A DNA stretch of 15,065 bases from a virus (taxonomy: Duplodnaviria > Heunggongvirae > Uroviricota > Caudoviricetes), in the IMG/VR virus record IMGVR_UViG_648276665_000002, positions 1 through 15,065 of that record. One strand, 5' to 3'. The notes beneath the pieces were generated by a model. That model was given only the letters and a program-made list of their open reading frames with translations, had not been told where the DNA came from and did no database searches. Positions within the stretch are counted from its first letter, which is position 1. Every line of letters starts with the position of its first letter. Of the stretch, positions 10,063 through 14,555 are shown piece after piece. The translations under genes were made by a program, and so were the position numbers.

Positions 10063-10413
10063 TCACTTTAACCGTTCACGGGCCGTCTTCGCCTTATGAC
10101 ACGGCCAGCACAGACTCTGCAGATTACTGTCGGCATCAGTGCCGCCATGCGCTTTAGGGATGATGTGGTCAACAGTTTTCGCCTCACGCACCACACCAGC
10201 GCGCAGACATAACTGACACAGGCCTTTGTCACGCTTCAGGACACGCGCGCGGATACTGTCCCACTTCGAACCGTAGCCGCGCTGATGACGGGATTGTCCT
10301 GGTTTGTATTGCTTCCAGCCTTCGCTTTTGTGGCTTTCGCAGTAGCCTGACGGGTCTGTGGTTGTAGAGCGGCAGCCGCGAACACGGCAGGCTTTTGGGG
10401 TTCGAGGGGGCAT
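10063..10413 (-). CDS. HNH endonuclease (terminase-associated)
   Basis: 116 aa; N-terminal CxxC pair (CRVRGC...C), then HNH motif DHIIPKAHGGTDADSNLQSLCWPCH; directly upstream of terS as in HK97-like packaging modules. Confidence 0.85.
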   Translation of the reverse strand: MPPRTPKACRVRGCRSTTTDPSGYCESHKSEGWKQYKPGQSRHQRGYGSKWDSIRARVLKRDKGLCQLCLRAGVVREAKTVDHIIPKAHGGTDADSNLQSLCWPCHKAKTARERLK

Positions 10414-11170
10414 TATTAATGTCCTAAATAGTTTCCTCTCTAAAAACTAATTTGTGTTAGGGAAATCATTAAATGAAGTGAACCTTTTAGTACCCACTGT
10501 AAAATTCACTTCATTAATATTTAACCAAATACAATGAATGTTCCAAAAGATGCTAATGATATATTTATCAGAGAATCCATACGAGCCTTAATTTCTGGCG
10601 TATTCTCGACCTCAGTACGCCATTGATTGACTGCCTCAATCATATCTCGACAAAACACATCTATTTGCAACTGAAGTTTGCCATTTAAGTGATTTAAATG
10701 CACTTGGCAATTTGTCCTAGGTGGTGGTGTAAAATTAAACTGCATCATTCTTTTCCTGTTCTCTGGATCCTGTCCAGCATGTAAACAAGAACAACGATAC
10801 AGCCAAAAATCATCCGCATAAAATCGACACTGTTCATGTGTACCGGATGTATATTTATTTTCAAGATAACGAGAAACCCAATCTTTATACCATTTCCCTG
10901 TTTCACCCTTACCTATTTTGGGACGTTCAACGCTCCTGCAAATATCAGGCATAGCAAGAGCCATAAACAATGCCGCTAACCAATTCTCACTTTCAATTGA
11001 AGATTCAATTGATTTTATAAACCTTTCCATAACTCACCTTTATATTATTTGATGATTATATTTATAGCACAGTTACAATCATTTTCCGGAAAATATTTAT
11101 TCATTTTGATATCCTATTTTTAGAATATCCTTTTTATCTCTATTGCATTGCGCTAATGCAGATAACAAAC
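10414..11170. other. AT-rich cargo island A between the lysis cassette and HNH/terminase
   Basis: Base composition drops visibly between about 10414 and 11170 relative to flanking phage genes; contains one well-formed ORF with its own RBS. Confidence 0.6.
10521..11030 (-). CDS. Hypothetical protein of unknown function (cargo of island A)
   Basis: 169 aa; AGGTGA 5 nt upstream of ATG 11030..11028; TAA stop at 10523..10521; AT-rich codon usage unlike neighbouring genes; hydrophobic C-terminal segment (LINISLASFGTFIVFG); no family recognised. Confidence 0.6.
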   Translation of the reverse strand: MERFIKSIESSIESENWLAALFMALAMPDICRSVERPKIGKGETGKWYKDWVSRYLENKYTSGTHEQCRFYADDFWLYRCSCLHAGQDPENRKRMMQFNFTPPPRTNCQVHLNHLNGKLQLQIDVFCRDMIEAVNQWRTEVENTPEIKARMDSLINISLASFGTFIVFG

Positions 11171-11414
11171 TCACATTCAGTTCCAGGCTAGCACCATATG
11201 TCAGTGGACTAGGTACAACTGGAATCGGTGTTTCAGAAGTCAGGCTGGCTGGCAGTGGTACCGCCGGAGTGTTCACGTAAACTGTCCGCGTACTTCCGCA
11301 ACCGGTCAGCAGCGGCAGCAGGCACAGGACGTGAAGCACAATCATCATCCGCAACAGCCACTTTGATATCTTCCTGGGTTCTCTGTGACTCCAGTGCAAT
11401 CTGCTGTTTTGCAT
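11097..11414 (-). CDS. o-spanin (Rz1-like outer-membrane lipoprotein), embedded in/overlapping Rz
   Basis: Out-of-frame ORF overlapping the 3' half of Rz; contains a signal peptide plus lipobox MMIVLHVLCLLPLLTGC and a Pro-rich region. Start is uncertain (ATG 11414 with AGAGG RBS, or ATG 11348/11345). The 3' end lies in AT-rich island DNA. Confidence 0.55.
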   Translation of the reverse strand: MQNSRLHWSHREPRKISKWLLRMMIVLHVLCLLPLLTGCGSTRTVYVNTPAVPLPASLTSETPIPVVPSPLTYGASLELNVSLLSALAQCNRDKKDILKIGYQNE

Positions 11415-11625
11415 GCTGGTTAGCCTCTATAACTGTATTGATGATTTGCAGTGATTGCAGAACGTTACGGGTAATGGCAGTTGCTGATTCAGCATTTCGT
11501 ATAGCCTCATCAGCACGCTCCTTTTCGTGCAGATATTTGCTGTAGTAATGCCCGGCAGACCAGATGAAGGAACCAATGACGGTAACAAAGAAGGCAACAA
11601 TAACCAGCTTATATCTCAGCTTCAT
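11233..11625 (-). CDS. i-spanin (Rz-like)
   Basis: 130 aa; N-terminal TM segment (LVIVAFFVTVIGSFIW) then a long charged helical region; directly downstream of the endolysin and containing the Rz1 ORF. Confidence 0.7.
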   Translation of the reverse strand: MKLRYKLVIVAFFVTVIGSFIWSAGHYYSKYLHEKERADEAIRNAESATAITRNVLQSLQIINTVIEANQHAKQQIALESQRTQEDIKVAVADDDCASRPVPAAAADRLRKYADSLREHSGGTTASQPDF

Positions 11626-12085
11626 TTACCACCCCACCAGCCTCTTTAAACCGGGAAATCAGGTCGCTAATTTTATGTTCATACTGACCGTAACCTGCAC
11701 CAGGTAAAGACGCCCAGATATTGCTGCAACGGTCGATTGCCTGACGAATATTGCCGCGATCAATCATCGGTAAAGCGCCACGCTCTTTAATCTGCTGTAA
11801 TGCCACTGAGTCCTGGCTTCTGGGAGAGAAGTCTTTCAGCCCAAGCTGCTTGCGGTAAGCATCCCACCAACGTGAAAGAAGTTGATAACGGCCTGCAGCT
11901 GTTGATTTGAGTTTCGGGTTTAGCGTGACAAGTTTGCGAGGGTGATCGGAGTAATCAGTGAAGAGTTCGCCACCGACAATAACGTCATAACCGTGGTTAC
12001 GTGTCGGTTGTCGCCCGTTATCCGTTCCTTCTGACCATGCCACCATATCCAGGAAAGCTTTACGCTGGGAATTTAGTACCTGCAT
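11609..12085 (-). CDS. Endolysin, lambda R-type lytic transglycosylase
   Basis: 158 aa; near-colinear match by eye to lambda R (QRKAFLDM.AWSEGTDNGRQ.TRNHGYDVIVGGELFTDYSDHPRKLVTLNPKLKST.AGRYQLLSRWWDAYRKQLGLKDFSP). Confidence 0.9.
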   Translation of the reverse strand: MQVLNSQRKAFLDMVAWSEGTDNGRQPTRNHGYDVIVGGELFTDYSDHPRKLVTLNPKLKSTAAGRYQLLSRWWDAYRKQLGLKDFSPRSQDSVALQQIKERGALPMIDRGNIRQAIDRCSNIWASLPGAGYGQYEHKISDLISRFKEAGGVVNEAEI

Positions 12086-12088
12086 AAA

Positions 12089-12415
12089 TTACTCCTTAGA
12101 GCCACCAAACTTATTACCGATTACTCTCATTGCAGCCCCACGAATAGCATCGACCCCGATCAGCCCAACGCCGCCACCAATGGCAACAGAAAGAGATTTA
12201 GGCCATCCGACATACTCAAGAGCGGATGCAAAAGTCAGCGTCAGAGCACCACAGAGCAAAATCTCGAGCGTTTTTCGTTTCCAGCCACCACCACCGCCAA
12301 AATAGGCAATGCGCAAGCCAGCCATAACGATCGACATAATCACTGCGCCCAGCGGTGTGTCTCCACGCCACCAGCTCTGGACCAACTCCAGCCAGGTATT
12401 TGGGTTATGAGGCAT
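12089..12415 (-). CDS. Holin
   Basis: 108 aa; hydrophobic Gly-rich segments consistent with 2-3 TM helices; immediately upstream of the endolysin. Confidence 0.75.
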   Translation of the reverse strand: MPHNPNTWLELVQSWWRGDTPLGAVIMSIVMAGLRIAYFGGGGGWKRKTLEILLCGALTLTFASALEYVGWPKSLSVAIGGGVGLIGVDAIRGAAMRVIGNKFGGSKE

Positions 12416-12557: not shown

Positions 12558-12596
12558 AGAAACGACAAAACCCGCTCGAAGACGGGTTTAAGCTGT
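12558..12596 (-). terminator. Candidate tR'-like intrinsic terminator upstream of the holin
   Basis: Plus 12568-12589 aaacccg-ctcgaaga-cgggttt; on the minus strand the 7-bp stem is followed by ttgtcgttt. Position upstream of the holin resembles the lambdoid pR'-tR' arrangement. Confidence 0.3.
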
Positions 12597-12599
12597 GTG

Positions 12600-12697
12600 G
12601 CGAAGTAACCACTCTTAACAGATTACAAGAATTTTTGCGTACGCGTTAATTTTTTTGTATTTTTCTCATTACACAACATATAAACCCTATGTAAAAA
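12600..12697. promoter_or_regulatory. AT-rich divergent promoter region: candidate late promoter (minus strand) and candidate promoter of the island B operon (plus strand)
   Basis: Plus strand: TTACAA...TTAATT and TTGCGT-17nt-TATTTT hexamer candidates upstream of ATG 12698. Minus strand: TTAACG-16nt-TGTAAT about 40 nt upstream of the tR'-like hairpin. All by eye. Confidence 0.25.
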
Positions 12698-13981
12698 ATG
12701 ACAGCAGAAATAGCCGTATTTAACAAGACCGCAGTAGCTTTAGCCGCAGATTCAGCTGTAACGATTTCTGGAGGCGGCAAACATAAAATCTATAATGGCG
12801 CTGAAAAGCTTTTCGCTCTAACTAAACATCATCCTGTAGGTTTGATGGTATATGGAACTGGTGATCTCTGCACAGCTCCATGGGAGCTTATCATTAAGGC
12901 TTATAGAAAGGATTTAGGCTCTAAATGTTTTGACTCTTTGGAGGAATATGCTGAGGATTTCTTCAATTATCTACAGTCGGCTAAATCAATCATCACACCA
13001 GGTATGCGTGAGGCTCATCTTTATCACTTCCTGAGCGAGATTGTATTCAGCATGCTTGTTGATGCTTTTTCTGAAGGTCTCGAACCAACATATTTCGTTA
13101 ACTTCGATAAGAATCAATTTGTTACAGACCTCACGAATTATTGCAACGATCTCCTTACAAAATTATCTGATATTAATTACTTTGATGGTTTTACTCCGGA
13201 TGATGAACAAGCAGCCCAAACCTATGCTTCATCAGTTACCCAACGCATCATTGCTCAAAAGTTTAGTGACTTTGATTCAATATCCATAACCCCACAGTTG
13301 ACAAAAGCAGTTAGTGATGTATTGGCAGCTATGATATGCAAGCAAAGTGATATTGGTTCCGTCTCTGGGATTGTGATTGCAGGTTATGGCGATAAAGACT
13401 ATTACCCTAAAGTATTATCATATGAAGTTTGTGGCTTCTTTAATGATAAAATCAGGAAAACCACAGATGCTGACAAGTGCTGCATCACTCCTAATTGCGG
13501 AGTGACTCCCTTTGCGCAAGAGGATGAAGTTTCTGCTTTCATGCAAGGAGCTAGTTCACATCTTATTCAAAATCTTCATGCTGAGTATCAACGTTCTATC
13601 GGCGATTTACTTGATGGTATTGATTCAGTAATCACAGATTTGGTGCCCACTTCAGATATCGAAGGAGCCAAGGATGCTATAGTTGATGTAGTGCGCAGGA
13701 CTGTTTCCGATTGCAAGGGGCGTATTGATAGCTTTGTCCGAGAAAACTATGTTGACAAAGTCGTAAATATGATCGAGTTTTTACCCAAGCAAGATTTAGC
13801 TTATATGGCTGAATCATTAGTAAATTTAACCGCTTTCAAGCGCAAGGTCTCCGATGATACTGAAACAGTGGGAGGCCCCATAGATGTTGCAATCATTTCT
13901 AAAGCTGATGGTTTTATCTGGGTTAAACGTAAGCACTATTTTGCAAAAGAACTGAACCATCACTACTTTTCACGGTCATAG
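12698..13981 (+). CDS. 427-aa protein with a putative N-terminal-nucleophile (HslV/proteasome-beta-like) hydrolase domain and an unassigned C-terminal region
   Basis: ATG 12698, TAG at 13979-13981. Begins M-T (MTAEIAVFNKTAVALAADSAVTISGGGKHKIYNGAEKLFAL..VGLMVYGTGDL); compare HslV [24 protein letters not shown]...KKVRRL...AGFAGGTAD. Thr directly after Met, Asp at the Asp17-equivalent position, KLF as in proteasome GKKLF, a GxG-D motif, and CGVTPFAQ (267-274) versus HslV GSGGPYAQ. No clear SD upstream. Confidence 0.6.
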   Translation: MTAEIAVFNKTAVALAADSAVTISGGGKHKIYNGAEKLFALTKHHPVGLMVYGTGDLCTAPWELIIKAYRKDLGSKCFDSLEEYAEDFFNYLQSAKSIITPGMREAHLYHFLSEIVFSMLVDAFSEGLEPTYFVNFDKNQFVTDLTNYCNDLLTKLSDINYFDGFTPDDEQAAQTYASSVTQRIIAQKFSDFDSISITPQLTKAVSDVLAAMICKQSDIGSVSGIVIAGYGDKDYYPKVLSYEVCGFFNDKIRKTTDADKCCITPNCGVTPFAQEDEVSAFMQGASSHLIQNLHAEYQRSIGDLLDGIDSVITDLVPTSDIEGAKDAIVDVVRRTVSDCKGRIDSFVRENYVDKVVNMIEFLPKQDLAYMAESLVNLTAFKRKVSDDTETVGGPIDVAIISKADGFIWVKRKHYFAKELNHHYFSRS

Positions 13982-14004
13982 CAACAAATAGACAAGGGGA
14001 ACAC

Positions 14005-14154
14005 ATGTCACTTAAGCAAGCCTATGAAAGAACTCAACCCAAAAGCATCAATGATTTCTTTCAGTTGAGTACTTCTGGAAAGAGTCGACGTACTGTAACA
14101 AGCCAATCTAACTTCTTTACTAAATTGAACAAAACATTACCTGCACAATCCTAA
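14005..14154 (+). CDS. Small hydrophilic basic protein (49 aa), second gene of the island B operon
   Basis: AAGGGGA 5 nt upstream of ATG 14005; MSLKQAYERTQPKSINDFFQLSTSGKSRRTVTSQSNFFTKLNKTLPAQS; TAA at 14152-14154 immediately followed by the terminator hairpin. Confidence 0.4.
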   Translation: MSLKQAYERTQPKSINDFFQLSTSGKSRRTVTSQSNFFTKLNKTLPAQS

Positions 14155-14193
14155 AAAGTTAAAAGCCACTACGGTGGCTTTTAACTTTTATTT
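14153..14193. terminator. Bidirectional intrinsic terminator shared by the island B operon (+) and the Q gene (-)
   Basis: Perfect 12-bp stem gttaaaagccac / gtggcttttaac (14158-14169 / 14174-14185) with tacg loop, flanked by A5 on the 5' side and ttttattt on the 3' side, so a U-tract follows the hairpin on either strand. Confidence 0.65.
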
Positions 14194-14538
14194 ACATGCA
14201 ATAACGCTCGTAATACCCTCTACAAAACCAATTGCAGTTTGCAATTCCTTTCTAATCGTGCCATCTGAACACCTTCTCTTTTTGGCAATAGTGCGTAATG
14301 AGATACCAATAACAAAGTGGGCTATGATGAGCTCATATTCCTCTGGTTTATACCTTCTCAACCGAGCCACACAACTGTCTATCATAATGCCTTCGTCATC
14401 ATCACACTGAATCCGTGACTTTTTGCCATGAGGTAAAAGCCCCTTGAAGCCTGCTGCTATCGGCTGCCAGTCCACGCCACTGTTATCTGCTGCAGCCCAT
14501 GCTCCCCAGCGGTCCAATACTTCATACATATCACGCAT
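14188..14538 (-). CDS. Late-gene antiterminator Q (QuuD-like)
   Basis: ORF-track start at 14553 is TTG; likely start ATG 14538..14536 with GGAGAAAG upstream. MRDMYEVLDRWGAWAAADNSGVDWQPIAAGFKGLLPHGKKSRIQCDDDEGIMIDSCVARL parallels E. coli DLP12 QuuD (VLERWGAWAA...IAAGFKGL...SRPQCCDDD) as recalled from memory. Confidence 0.8.
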   Translation of the reverse strand: MRDMYEVLDRWGAWAAADNSGVDWQPIAAGFKGLLPHGKKSRIQCDDDEGIMIDSCVARLRRYKPEEYELIIAHFVIGISLRTIAKKRRCSDGTIRKELQTAIGFVEGITSVIACK

Positions 14539-14555
14539 CAACTTTCTCCACAAAA

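What the first reader, a model, noticed from the sequence alone, without database searches (positions are those of the whole stretch)
12698..13981. Prophage cargo gene encoding a putative HslV/proteasome-like N-terminal-nucleophile hydrolase with a large extra region
The translation begins Met-Thr and its first ~60 residues follow the proteasome-beta/HslV pattern position by position: Thr right after the initiator Met, Asp at the Asp17-equivalent position (AVALAADSAVT vs HslV [11 protein letters not shown]), a Lys in a KLF context as in proteasome GKKLF, and a Gly-rich GTGD motif. Further on, CGVTPFAQ (267-274) resembles the HslV GSGGPYAQ segment, with Cys or Gly where the Ser would be. The protein is 427 aa, more than twice HslV, so it carries insertions and an unassigned C-terminal region. 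It sits in an AT-rich island, on the opposite strand to all phage genes, with its own promoter region and terminator, in the Q-to-lysis slot where lambdoid phages carry lysogenic-conversion or defence cargo. I do not recognise this as a described anti-phage or phage accessory system. It could be a self-contained protease effector, or a protease that borrows the host HslU ATPase; both are speculation.
Basis: partly seen in the sequence, partly recalled or inferred. Interest (0 to 1): 0.85.

Follow-up and report, generated by a model that had tools for sequence, protein, structure and literature searches.

The report
Proteasome-like hydrolase gene pair in prophage
This prophage cargo gene does encode a proteasome-fold threonine hydrolase with two large helical insertions, it belongs to a very widespread family of unknown function, and it always travels with a tiny, previously overlooked partner gene in the slots where phages keep genes that work in the lysogen.

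Summary

It is not HslV. There is no PF00227 hit and no ATPase neighbour. The extra mass is two hypervariable helical insertions (about aa 101-214 and 287-360), not a C-terminal domain.

The family is large (about 6,000 clusters at 50% identity) and has no Pfam, NCBIfam or PADLOC model. By architecture and phyletic spread it fits "PMI-4" of Fuchs, Alva and Lupas 2021, a catalogued family of unknown function.

New here: the 49-aa ORF at 14005-14154 belongs to a partner gene class found directly downstream in 103 of 109 representative loci. No other neighbour is conserved. The pair recurs in prophage accessory slots: between Q and the lysis genes, directly after the repressor (the rexAB/sieB position), and at the ends of satellites.

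My best reading is a self-contained two-gene proteolytic module used in phage or mobile-element conflict. The fold and catalytic residues are shown. The biological role is inferred.

The parts
12698..13981 (+). Gene for a 427-aa proteasome-like (T1-type Ntn) threonine hydrolase, probably family PMI-4
12698..12997 (+). Core, N-terminal part (aa 1-100): strands S1-S5 and helices H1-H2, with Thr2 (nucleophile after Met removal), Asp18, Lys37 and Gly48/Gly53
   Evidence: Secondary structure. Invariance 83/83 for T2, D18, K37. In register with Thermoplasma beta T1/E17/K33.
12998..13339 (+). Helical insertion 1 (aa 101-214, five helices) after H2, hypervariable
   Evidence: Helices 101-126, 130-134, 138-156, 167-188, 199-214. 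Mean top-residue frequency 0.28 against 0.64-0.79 in the core. dN about 7 times that of the core.
13340..13555 (+). Core, middle part (aa 215-286): strands S6-S9 and helix H3, with invariant G229, G231, P237, A273, Q274, G284
13556..13777 (+). Helical insertion 2 (aa 287-360, long helical hairpin) between H3 and H4, hypervariable
   Evidence: Helices 287-315 and 318-360. Conservation 0.29.
13778..13978 (+). Core, C-terminal part (aa 361-427): H4, S10, S11 and a short C-terminal helix. This is the most conserved segment (LPKxDLAYMAESLVNLTAFKRKVS...ETVGGPIDVAIISKxDGFIWVKRKHYF).
   Evidence: Conservation 0.79. GGPIDVAIISKADGF aligns to GGMIDVAVITRKDGY of Thermoplasma beta.
13994..13999 (+). Shine-Dalgarno-like AAGGGG, 5 nt before the small ORF's ATG
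   Evidence: Read from the sequence.
14005..14154 (+). Partner gene: 49-aa basic protein (pI 10.6) with a KS-I-N-DFF motif and a second NFF motif
   Evidence: ORF. Conserved and co-diverging in relatives whose large protein is 86-60% identical. dN 0.14 with saturated dS. A same-strand small ORF follows the large gene in 103/109 representative loci against 38% for control genes. An HMM of the distant subfamily hits only directly-downstream ORFs: 48-50 hits among 12,020-21,681 ORFs. AF2 single-sequence model: three short helices, pLDDT 69.
14154..14189 (.). Perfect 16-bp hairpin flanked by an A-run and a U-run. It is a likely bidirectional terminator that ends the two-gene operon and, on the other strand, the Q gene.
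   Evidence: RNA fold dG -22.7 kcal/mol, z -6.9, 0 of 200 shuffles as stable.
12567..12664 (-). Boundary landmark (phage backbone, not cargo): a conserved block found next to Q genes in many lambdoid phages. It is probably the late-promoter region, with a tR'-like terminator at 12589-12568.
   Evidence: 83-93% identical in many phages next to Q. Kept upstream of all window-subfamily loci, even where the protein is only 60% identical. Minus-strand terminator.
14188..14553 (-). Flank: antiterminator Q gene
   Evidence: phrog_79 E 5e-47; RefSeq annotation.
12089..12415 (-). Flank: holin gene, followed by endolysin (11609-12085) and Rz/Rz1
   Evidence: phrog_126, phrog_90, phrog_214; LysC/Rz1.

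Best explanation
The locus is a self-contained two-gene operon carried as prophage cargo.

Gene 1 encodes a proteasome-fold N-terminal-nucleophile hydrolase.
- Shown: the initiator Met is followed directly by Thr in essentially every family member, with no propeptide.
- Inferred: methionine aminopeptidase exposes Thr as the nucleophile, which works with the invariant Asp18 and Lys37 as in 20S beta subunits.
- Shown: two hypervariable helical insertions sit after H2 and between H3 and H4.
- Inferred: in proteasomes these sites make the ring and ring-to-ring contacts, so the protein probably does not build a canonical barrel and needs no AAA+ unfoldase. The insertions probably form a lid or a recognition surface.

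Gene 2 is a small, basic, fast-evolving protein.
- Shown: it is translationally coupled or closely adjacent to gene 1.
- Inferred: it is the hydrolase's dedicated partner, either an inhibitor or adaptor or its first substrate.

Biological role.
- Shown: the pair moves as a unit between phages, satellites and chromosomes. In prophages it occupies slots typical of genes expressed in the lysogen.
- Inferred, about 40-45% likely: it acts in phage or mobile-element conflict, as exclusion or abortive infection by triggered proteolysis.

My confidence that it is a catalytically competent proteasome-like hydrolase is about 0.9. That it forms a two-gene module, about 0.85. For the whole statement including the conflict role, 0.45.

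For: Active site: T2, D18 and K37 are 83/83 and in register with T1/E17/K33. In the 150 best of 6,015 family clusters the match starts at residue 1, so there is no propeptide.

Insertions. They are hypervariable but still under purifying selection.

Partner gene. Start/stop overlaps of -3 to -22 nt are common.

No other conserved neighbour and no ATPase: the largest neighbour cluster covers 10 of 110 loci, and 143 immediate neighbours fall into 167 Pfam families.

Mobile, accessory positions:
- Q-to-holin slot here and in Salmonella, where it sits beside hicAB, and in Providencia phage PSTRCR_117lys.
- Directly after the cI/RacR-like repressor on the same strand in Klebsiella and in 13 E. coli genomes, including a decayed prophage.
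- The extreme accessory end of Streptococcus satellite phages.
- An integrase-AlpA-primase island in Serratia.
- Beside a type I restriction-modification system in Vibrio.
- 154 IMG/VR contigs.

Distribution is patchy: 22 of 5,426 complete E. coli genomes.

Fuchs et al. 2021 independently argued that such insertions are incompatible with stacked rings, and they found no AAA+ partner.
Against: There is no experimental datum for any member.

No PADLOC model matches. The immediate neighbours across phyla are heterogeneous, with DNA methylases in only about 5 of 143. A defence-island association is therefore not established for the family as a whole.

In the Providencia phage the pair is on the same strand as the late genes, which would fit a lytic-cycle role.

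No promoter was identified.

The Ser129 equivalent is not conserved, and no coordinates were available to inspect the active-site geometry.

The interaction between the two proteins could not be modelled.

No dN/dS above 1 was seen in the insertions, although dS was saturated.
Confidence: 0.45

Rival explanations
1. Same enzyme and partner, but the pair is an addiction or toxin-antitoxin-like module, or a general or regulatory protease that merely hitch-hikes on mobile elements. It would stabilise the element or adjust host physiology rather than act against phages.
For: The two-gene architecture has a small, probably labile basic protein with translational coupling. It is adjacent to hicAB in Salmonella. 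It is retained in a decayed prophage. Many family members in diverse phyla lie among ordinary metabolic genes.
Against: The small protein lacks any recognisable antitoxin or DNA-binding domain. The gene order (large gene first) is atypical for most type II systems. The recurrence in the rex/sieB and Q-S slots and at satellite ends fits conflict genes at least as well.
Confidence: 0.2
2. The enzyme is a sequence-specific transpeptidase or processing enzyme, like Connectase, whose dedicated substrate is the small protein. It would either mature the small protein into an active peptide or ligate it to targets as a tag.
For: Connectase shows that a monomeric proteasome homologue with helical insertions can be a specific ligase (PMC7980362). 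The small proteins have a conserved N-proximal motif, hydrophobic-x-[DE]-[FWY]-x-[KR]-x-[FY]-[FLN]-P, followed by a variable tail. That layout resembles a leader and core. The strict one-to-one linkage fits an enzyme-substrate pair.
Confidence: 0.12
3. The pair serves the phage during lytic growth, for example by degrading a host defence or regulatory protein (counter-defence or takeover).
For: In Providencia phage PSTRCR_117lys the pair lies between Q and the holin on the same strand as the late genes. Relatives occur in isolated phages of Stenotrophomonas and Porphyromonas.
Against: In this window and in Salmonella the operon is on the opposite strand, convergent with Q and upstream of the late promoter block. 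In the Klebsiella and E. coli Rac-like prophages it follows the repressor gene on the repressor's strand. Most family members are in cellular genomes of many phyla and archaea, away from phage genes.
Confidence: 0.12
4. One reading: an HslV surrogate that assembles into rings and borrows the host HslU ATPase.
For: The proteasome-like fold and the Met-Thr start are as in E. coli HslV.
Confidence: 0.03
5. A catalytically dead scaffold or a spurious ORF.
For: There is no Pfam or NCBIfam model. The Ser129 equivalent is missing.
Against: Core dN/dS is about 0.02. There are more than 6,000 homologue clusters of uniform length. Thr, Asp and Lys are invariant. The fold prediction is confident.
Confidence: 0.02

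Closest known systems
PMI-4 ('Proteasome homolog with Multiple Insertions 4') of Fuchs, Alva and Lupas, Bioinformatics 2021 (PMC8665760)
   Same: Proteasome-like core with Thr1/Asp17/Lys33. A long insertion after H1/H2 and an insertion between H3 and H4, with no S3/S4 insertion. It is the largest of the newly described families. It is found in Proteobacteria, Firmicutes, Actinobacteria, Bacteroidetes, PVC, Cyanobacteria, other bacteria, Euryarchaeota and phages. No AAA+ partner and no known function. All of this matches what I found.
   Different: That paper reports no informative gene context. Here a conserved small downstream gene and recurrent prophage and satellite accessory slots are seen.
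20S proteasome beta subunit (MEROPS T1, Pfam PF00227)
   Different: No PF00227 match. No propeptide, no alpha-subunit partner, 427 aa rather than about 200, two helical insertions at the ring-contact sites, and Ser129 not conserved.
HslV (ClpQ) of the HslUV protease
   Same: Met-Thr start with the nucleophile exposed by Met removal, and the same superfamily fold.
Connectase (MJ0548; PDB 6ZW0), a monomeric proteasome homologue that is a specific protein ligase
   Same: A proteasome-fold enzyme with helical insertions that probably does not form rings. It is a precedent for a non-degradative, sequence-specific reaction on a dedicated partner.
Lysogen-expressed prophage exclusion genes in the same slots (lambda rexAB after cI; sieB in Rac and P22; cargo between Q and S such as stx). 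From general knowledge.
   Same: Same genomic positions, low GC, own terminator and patchy distribution.
   Different: No sequence or fold relation. Function here is untested.

Membership tests
Proteasome-like (T1) Ntn hydrolase superfamily | Alpha-beta-beta-alpha sandwich with proteasome beta topology (S1-S11, H1-H4) | tested here: met
Proteasome-like (T1) Ntn hydrolase superfamily | Thr (or Ser) as the first residue of the mature chain | tested here: met
   Thr2 in 83/83. MT[AST]E at the start of nearly all loci. Matches start at residue 1 in the 150 best family clusters. Met removal itself was not tested.
Proteasome-like (T1) Ntn hydrolase superfamily | Asp/Glu17 and Lys33 | tested here: met
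   D18 and K37 in 83/83, in register with E17 and K33 of the Thermoplasma beta subunit.
Proteasome-like (T1) Ntn hydrolase superfamily | Gly47 oxyanion hole; Ser129/Asp166/Ser169 support network | tested here: inconclusive
   G48 78/83 and G53 65/83. E389 77/83 lies near the Asp166 position. The Ser129-equivalent positions 269/270 are hydrophobic and the Ser169 equivalent is Val391. No coordinates were available to check the geometry.
Proteasome-like (T1) Ntn hydrolase superfamily | Match to Pfam PF00227 (Proteasome) | tested here: not met
   No hit even at E up to 10. PDB profile search E 1.6. hhalign 76% probability over 20 residues only.
Proteasome-like (T1) Ntn hydrolase superfamily | Thr1-dependent peptide-bond hydrolysis or transfer | not testable with these tools
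   Needs biochemistry.
PMI-4 (Fuchs et al. 2021) | Long insertion after H1/H2 | tested here: met
   Five helices, aa 101-214. Family description.
PMI-4 (Fuchs et al. 2021) | Insertion between H3 and H4, and no helical S3/S4 insertion | tested here: met
   Helical hairpin aa 287-360. The S3/S4 region (aa 22-34) is only a short low-confidence loop.
PMI-4 (Fuchs et al. 2021) | Broad spread over bacterial phyla, Euryarchaeota and phages; the largest new family | tested here: met
   Table 1 of the paper.
PMI-4 (Fuchs et al. 2021) | Sequence clustering with the family representative HDY66466.1 | not testable with these tools
HslV | Compact subunit of about 175 aa without insertions, encoded with hslU | tested here: not met
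Connectase | No H1/H2; two-helix insertion between S3 and S4 | tested here: not met
   H1 (62-73) and H2 (81-94) are present and there is no S3/S4 helices.
Known anti-phage defence systems (PADLOC-DB 2.0.0) | Match of either protein to a defence-system model | tested here: not met
   0 families for both proteins at E up to 10.
Type II toxin-antitoxin module | Small neutralising protein with a recognisable antitoxin or DNA-binding fold; toxicity of the large protein alone | tested here: inconclusive
   No Pfam family for 48 small proteins. Toxicity was not testable.

The most novel reading that the evidence does not exclude
A proteasome-fold threonine hydrolase and its small, fast-evolving partner form a previously unrecognised and very widespread two-gene immunity or conflict module of phages, satellites and their hosts. 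It would be the first proteasome-like effector in prokaryotic anti-phage defence. The conserved catalytic core would act as the executioner, the hypervariable helical insertions as the sensing or substrate-selecting surface, and the small protein as the trigger-sensitive inhibitor or first substrate.
Probability: 0.3. Interest if true: 0.85.

Novelty: new member of a known kind. Interest (0 to 1): 0.6.

Why it matters
Proteasome homologues in bacteria are numerous, but apart from HslV, the actinobacterial 20S and Connectase they have no known function. The 2021 catalogue found no gene context to guide experiments.

This locus supplies three things:
- An E. coli-borne member in a well-understood lambdoid prophage, which makes it experimentally tractable.
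- An obligate small partner gene that annotation pipelines mostly miss.
- Recurrent placement in slots associated with lysogen-expressed exclusion genes.

Together these turn 'function unknown' into concrete tests: a Thr2Ala mutant, the operon with and without the small gene, and a phage panel. If the conflict role is right, it adds a new enzymatic logic, proteasome-type proteolysis without an unfoldase, to prokaryotic immunity. If not, it still gives a route to the biochemistry of what appears to be the largest of the newly catalogued uncharacterised proteasome-like families (PMI-4), if membership is confirmed.

Tried and rejected
Searches that found nothing useful:
- Pfam, NCBIfam and PADLOC gave nothing for the large or the small protein.
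- PHROGs gave only an 'unknown function' family.
- Single-sequence and profile searches of PDB sequences were non-significant, best E 1.6. The best hits were nevertheless proteasome beta subunits.
- hhalign to the Thermoplasma beta subunit matched only 20 C-terminal residues, and hhalign to E. coli HslV matched nothing.
- Foldseek against the BFVD viral structures gave no significant match. The afdb50 library was unavailable.
- Rfam and tRNA scans of the window were empty.
- Literature searches for a proteasome-like or Ntn defence system, for HslV-like phage genes, and for the RefSeq accession WP_000123148 found nothing. No experimental follow-up of the 2021 catalogue was found.

Tests that came out negative:
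- I looked for a conserved third gene, especially an ATPase, by all-against-all clustering of 1,202 neighbours in 110 loci. None was found.
- I looked for defence-gene enrichment among the immediate neighbours. There were only a few methylases.
- I looked for a sigma-70 promoter upstream. None reached consensus. The best candidate by eye is TATAAA at about 12679-12684, and I do not rely on it.
- I looked for positive selection in the insertions. dN/dS was about 0.1 with saturated dS.

Not possible with these tools:
- The two proteins could not be modelled as a complex.
- Model coordinates could not be inspected.
- I did not try to fish out HDY66466.1 by consensus search. The chance of success was low for the cost.
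Full report
**Observation.**
The window is the late region of a prophage on the minus strand. It reads, in order: Q antiterminator (14188-14553), holin (12089-12415), endolysin, Rz/Rz1, an AT-rich unknown ORF, HNH endonuclease, small and large terminase, portal, S78 prohead protease, capsid, connectors, tail sheath and tail tube. The holin region resembles Shigella phages SfII and SfIV.

Between Q and the holin lies a low-GC island, 0.37-0.41 against 0.50-0.60 elsewhere. It holds the plus-strand ORF 12698-13981, 427 aa, starting Met-Thr-Ala-Glu. The ORF is under strong purifying selection against relatives at 86% identity: core dN/dS about 0.02, insertions about 0.1.

**What the large protein is.**
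Sequence libraries are silent. There is no Pfam, NCBIfam or PADLOC hit, only PHROG 5990, 'unknown function'.

An AlphaFold2 model built on 44 homologues is confident (pLDDT 84.4, pTM 0.79).
- Lower down come Anbu (14.1), BPH (12.0), HslV (11.3) and Connectase (10.9). Other Ntn hydrolases score about 10.
- Foldseek agrees. All 50 top hits are proteasome subunits, and the best is the Thermoplasma beta subunit at E 1.7e-4, probability 1.0.

A profile of the family has the Thermoplasma beta subunit as its best, though non-significant, hit among PDB sequences. The register puts Thr2 on Thr1, Asp18 on Glu17 and Lys37 on Lys33, and aligns GGPIDVAIISKADGF with GGMIDVAVITRKDGY.

In 83 homologues from most bacterial phyla and several archaeal lineages, Thr2, Asp18 and Lys37 are invariant. 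In the 150 best of 6,015 family clusters the match begins at residue 1, so there is no propeptide. From established knowledge, Thr in position 2 allows removal of Met1 by methionine aminopeptidase, as in E. coli HslV.

The Ser129 equivalent is not conserved, and I could not inspect the geometry.

**Anatomy.**
The model maps onto the proteasome beta topology as follows:

| Element | Residues |
|---|---|
| S1-S5 | 4-53 |
| H1 | 62-73 |
| H2 | 81-94 |
| Insertion 1, five helices | 101-214 |
| S6-S9 | 223-271 |
| H3 | 275-283 |
| Insertion 2, long helical hairpin | 287-360 |
| H4 | 364-385 |
| S10-S11 | 395-411 |
| Short C-terminal helix | 417-425 |

The 'extra' half of the protein is thus two internal insertions, not a C-terminal domain. 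Conservation is sharply split. The core has a mean top-residue frequency of 0.64-0.79 with 68 positions at or above 90%. The two insertions are at 0.28-0.29 with none.

**Relation to what is known.**
Fuchs, Alva and Lupas (2021; PMC8665760) catalogued 22 new proteasome homologue families in silico. One of them, PMI-4, has exactly this architecture: a long insertion after H1/H2, an insertion between H3 and H4, and no S3/S4 insertion. It is the largest new family. It is also the only new family they list in all the named bacterial phyla as well as in Euryarchaeota and phages.

They note that such insertions should hinder ring and double-ring assembly. They found no AAA+ partner and 'no genomic contexts ... 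suggestive of a specific function'. I found no later functional work.

I could not obtain the PMI-4 representative sequence. Membership is therefore very likely, about 0.8, but not proven.

**The partner gene.**
The 49-aa ORF at 14005-14154 has an AAGGGG Shine-Dalgarno sequence 5 nt upstream and a pI of 10.6. It is followed immediately by a perfect 16-bp hairpin at 14154-14189 (dG -22.7, z -6.9), which also lies just past the stop codon of Q on the other strand.

Four lines of evidence say the ORF is a real, conserved partner gene.
- In relatives whose large protein is 86-60% identical, the small ORF is kept and co-diverges: M.LKQs[YF].r.QPK[ST][VI][KN]DFF, then a K-rich stretch, then N[NS]FFtkL. 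dN is 0.14 with saturated dS.
- Other subfamilies carry their own versions in the same place, for example ..ELREWQKKFNPS.. and ..SMKEFEKKYFPKS.. followed by an amphipathic helix.
- An HMM built from 12 of the latter and iterated finds 48-50 ORFs among 12,020-21,681 mechanical ORFs. Every one lies directly downstream of a family member on the same strand. The sub-threshold list is dominated by the downstream ORFs of the other subfamilies, including the window's own.
- Overall, 103 of 109 representative loci have such an ORF starting between -80 and +40 nt of the stop codon, often overlapping it by 4 nt (ATGA; offset -3). The figure for control genes is 38%.

A joint alignment lines up a shared aromatic-aromatic-Pro core. 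No Pfam family matches. Public gene calls almost never include it: 5 clusters in 5.8 billion sequences, and RefSeq omits it. Alone, it is predicted as three short low-confidence helices.

**Context across genomes.**
No other neighbour is conserved. The largest cluster of neighbours, Q antiterminators, covers 10 of 110 representative loci. The 143 immediate neighbours fall into 167 Pfam families, led by DNA methylases with 5.

Where the surroundings are interpretable, the pair sits in accessory positions of mobile elements:
- Between Q and the lysis genes: here, in nine ETEC-type E. coli genomes, in Salmonella next to hicAB, and in Providencia phage PSTRCR_117lys, where it is on the late-gene strand.
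- Directly after the cI/RacR-like repressor on the repressor's strand, in Klebsiella and in 13 further E. coli genomes, one of them a decayed Rac-like prophage. From general knowledge, this is the position of lambda rexAB or sieB.
- At the extreme end of Streptococcus satellite phages, after terS.
- After the primase of an integrase-AlpA-primase island in Serratia.
- In an integrase/GPA island in Alteromonas.
- Beside a type I restriction-modification system between integrases in Vibrio.

IMG/VR holds 154 contigs with relatives. Plasmids rarely carry it: 10 of 72,556. Within E. coli it is patchy: 22 of 5,426 complete genomes.

**Mechanism, with the steps marked.**
- Shown: the proteasome fold, the invariant Thr/Asp/Lys, the absence of a propeptide, the two hypervariable insertions at the ring-contact sites, the obligate small downstream gene, the terminator, and mobility and accessory-slot placement.
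- Inferred: Met removal exposes the nucleophile. The enzyme works without a barrel or an unfoldase. The insertions gate or select substrates. The small protein binds the enzyme as inhibitor, adaptor or first substrate.
- Speculative, about 40-45%: the module acts in phage or mobile-element conflict by triggered proteolysis.

The rivals are an addiction or housekeeping role (0.2), a Connectase-like ligase or peptide-maturation enzyme acting on the small protein (0.12), a lytic-cycle or counter-defence role (0.12), an HslU-dependent HslV surrogate (0.03), and an inactive or spurious ORF (0.02).

**Verdict.**
The gene is a new, experimentally tractable member of a catalogued but functionally unknown family of proteasome homologues. 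The added value here is the conserved partner gene and the recurrent lysogeny-associated slots. Interest 0.6.

Noticed in passing
window 10521-11030 (-), within the low-GC stretch of about 10250-11250: A second AT-rich island (GC 0.36-0.41) holds a 169-aa ORF with no Pfam hit and only PHROG 18591, 'unknown'. It lies between Rz/Rz1 and the HNH endonuclease on the phage strand. It may be another cargo gene.
   Followed up: partly
window 12567-12664, with a minus-strand terminator at 12589-12568: A block of about 100 bp just upstream of the cargo gene is 83-93% identical to sequence next to Q genes in many lambdoid phages. It is kept in all window-subfamily loci, even where the protein is only 60% identical. 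It is probably the late promoter/tR' region, so the cargo sits exactly between Q and that block. Whether it also drives the cargo divergently is unknown.
   Followed up: partly
L182 5790-7190 (E. coli TD225-C4, WP_001619338.1); also P0062, P0112, L062, L069: Public gene calls often start the large gene at an upstream in-frame codon, 32 extra residues in the RefSeq E. coli entry. This hides the Met-Thr N-terminus that defines an Ntn hydrolase. The conserved MTAE is internal to these calls.
   Followed up: yes
L082 7311-7517 and 7514-7708: One actinobacterial locus carries two tandem copies of the small partner gene after the large gene.
   Followed up: no
Small ORFs of the 43-48% subfamily (for example L010 7289-7438, L122-L136): These partner proteins end in a hydrophobic-Phe-[STCN]-[WLIR] motif at the extreme C-terminus. 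It is loosely reminiscent of the HbYX tails with which activators dock on proteasomes. This is a resemblance only and was not tested.
   Followed up: no
L179 7131-7784 (Salmonella): In the Salmonella prophage, a hicA/hicB toxin-antitoxin pair lies directly upstream of the module on the same strand, in the same Q-to-holin slot. The slot therefore accumulates several accessory modules.
   Followed up: no
L001 (E. coli ETEC-2265, NZ_CP023346.1 1783695-1801528): In the ETEC prophage that carries the identical module, the slot between it and the holins also holds a DNA methyltransferase and two tRNA genes (Gly, Thr). The iss serum-survival gene lies beyond the lysis genes.
   Followed up: no
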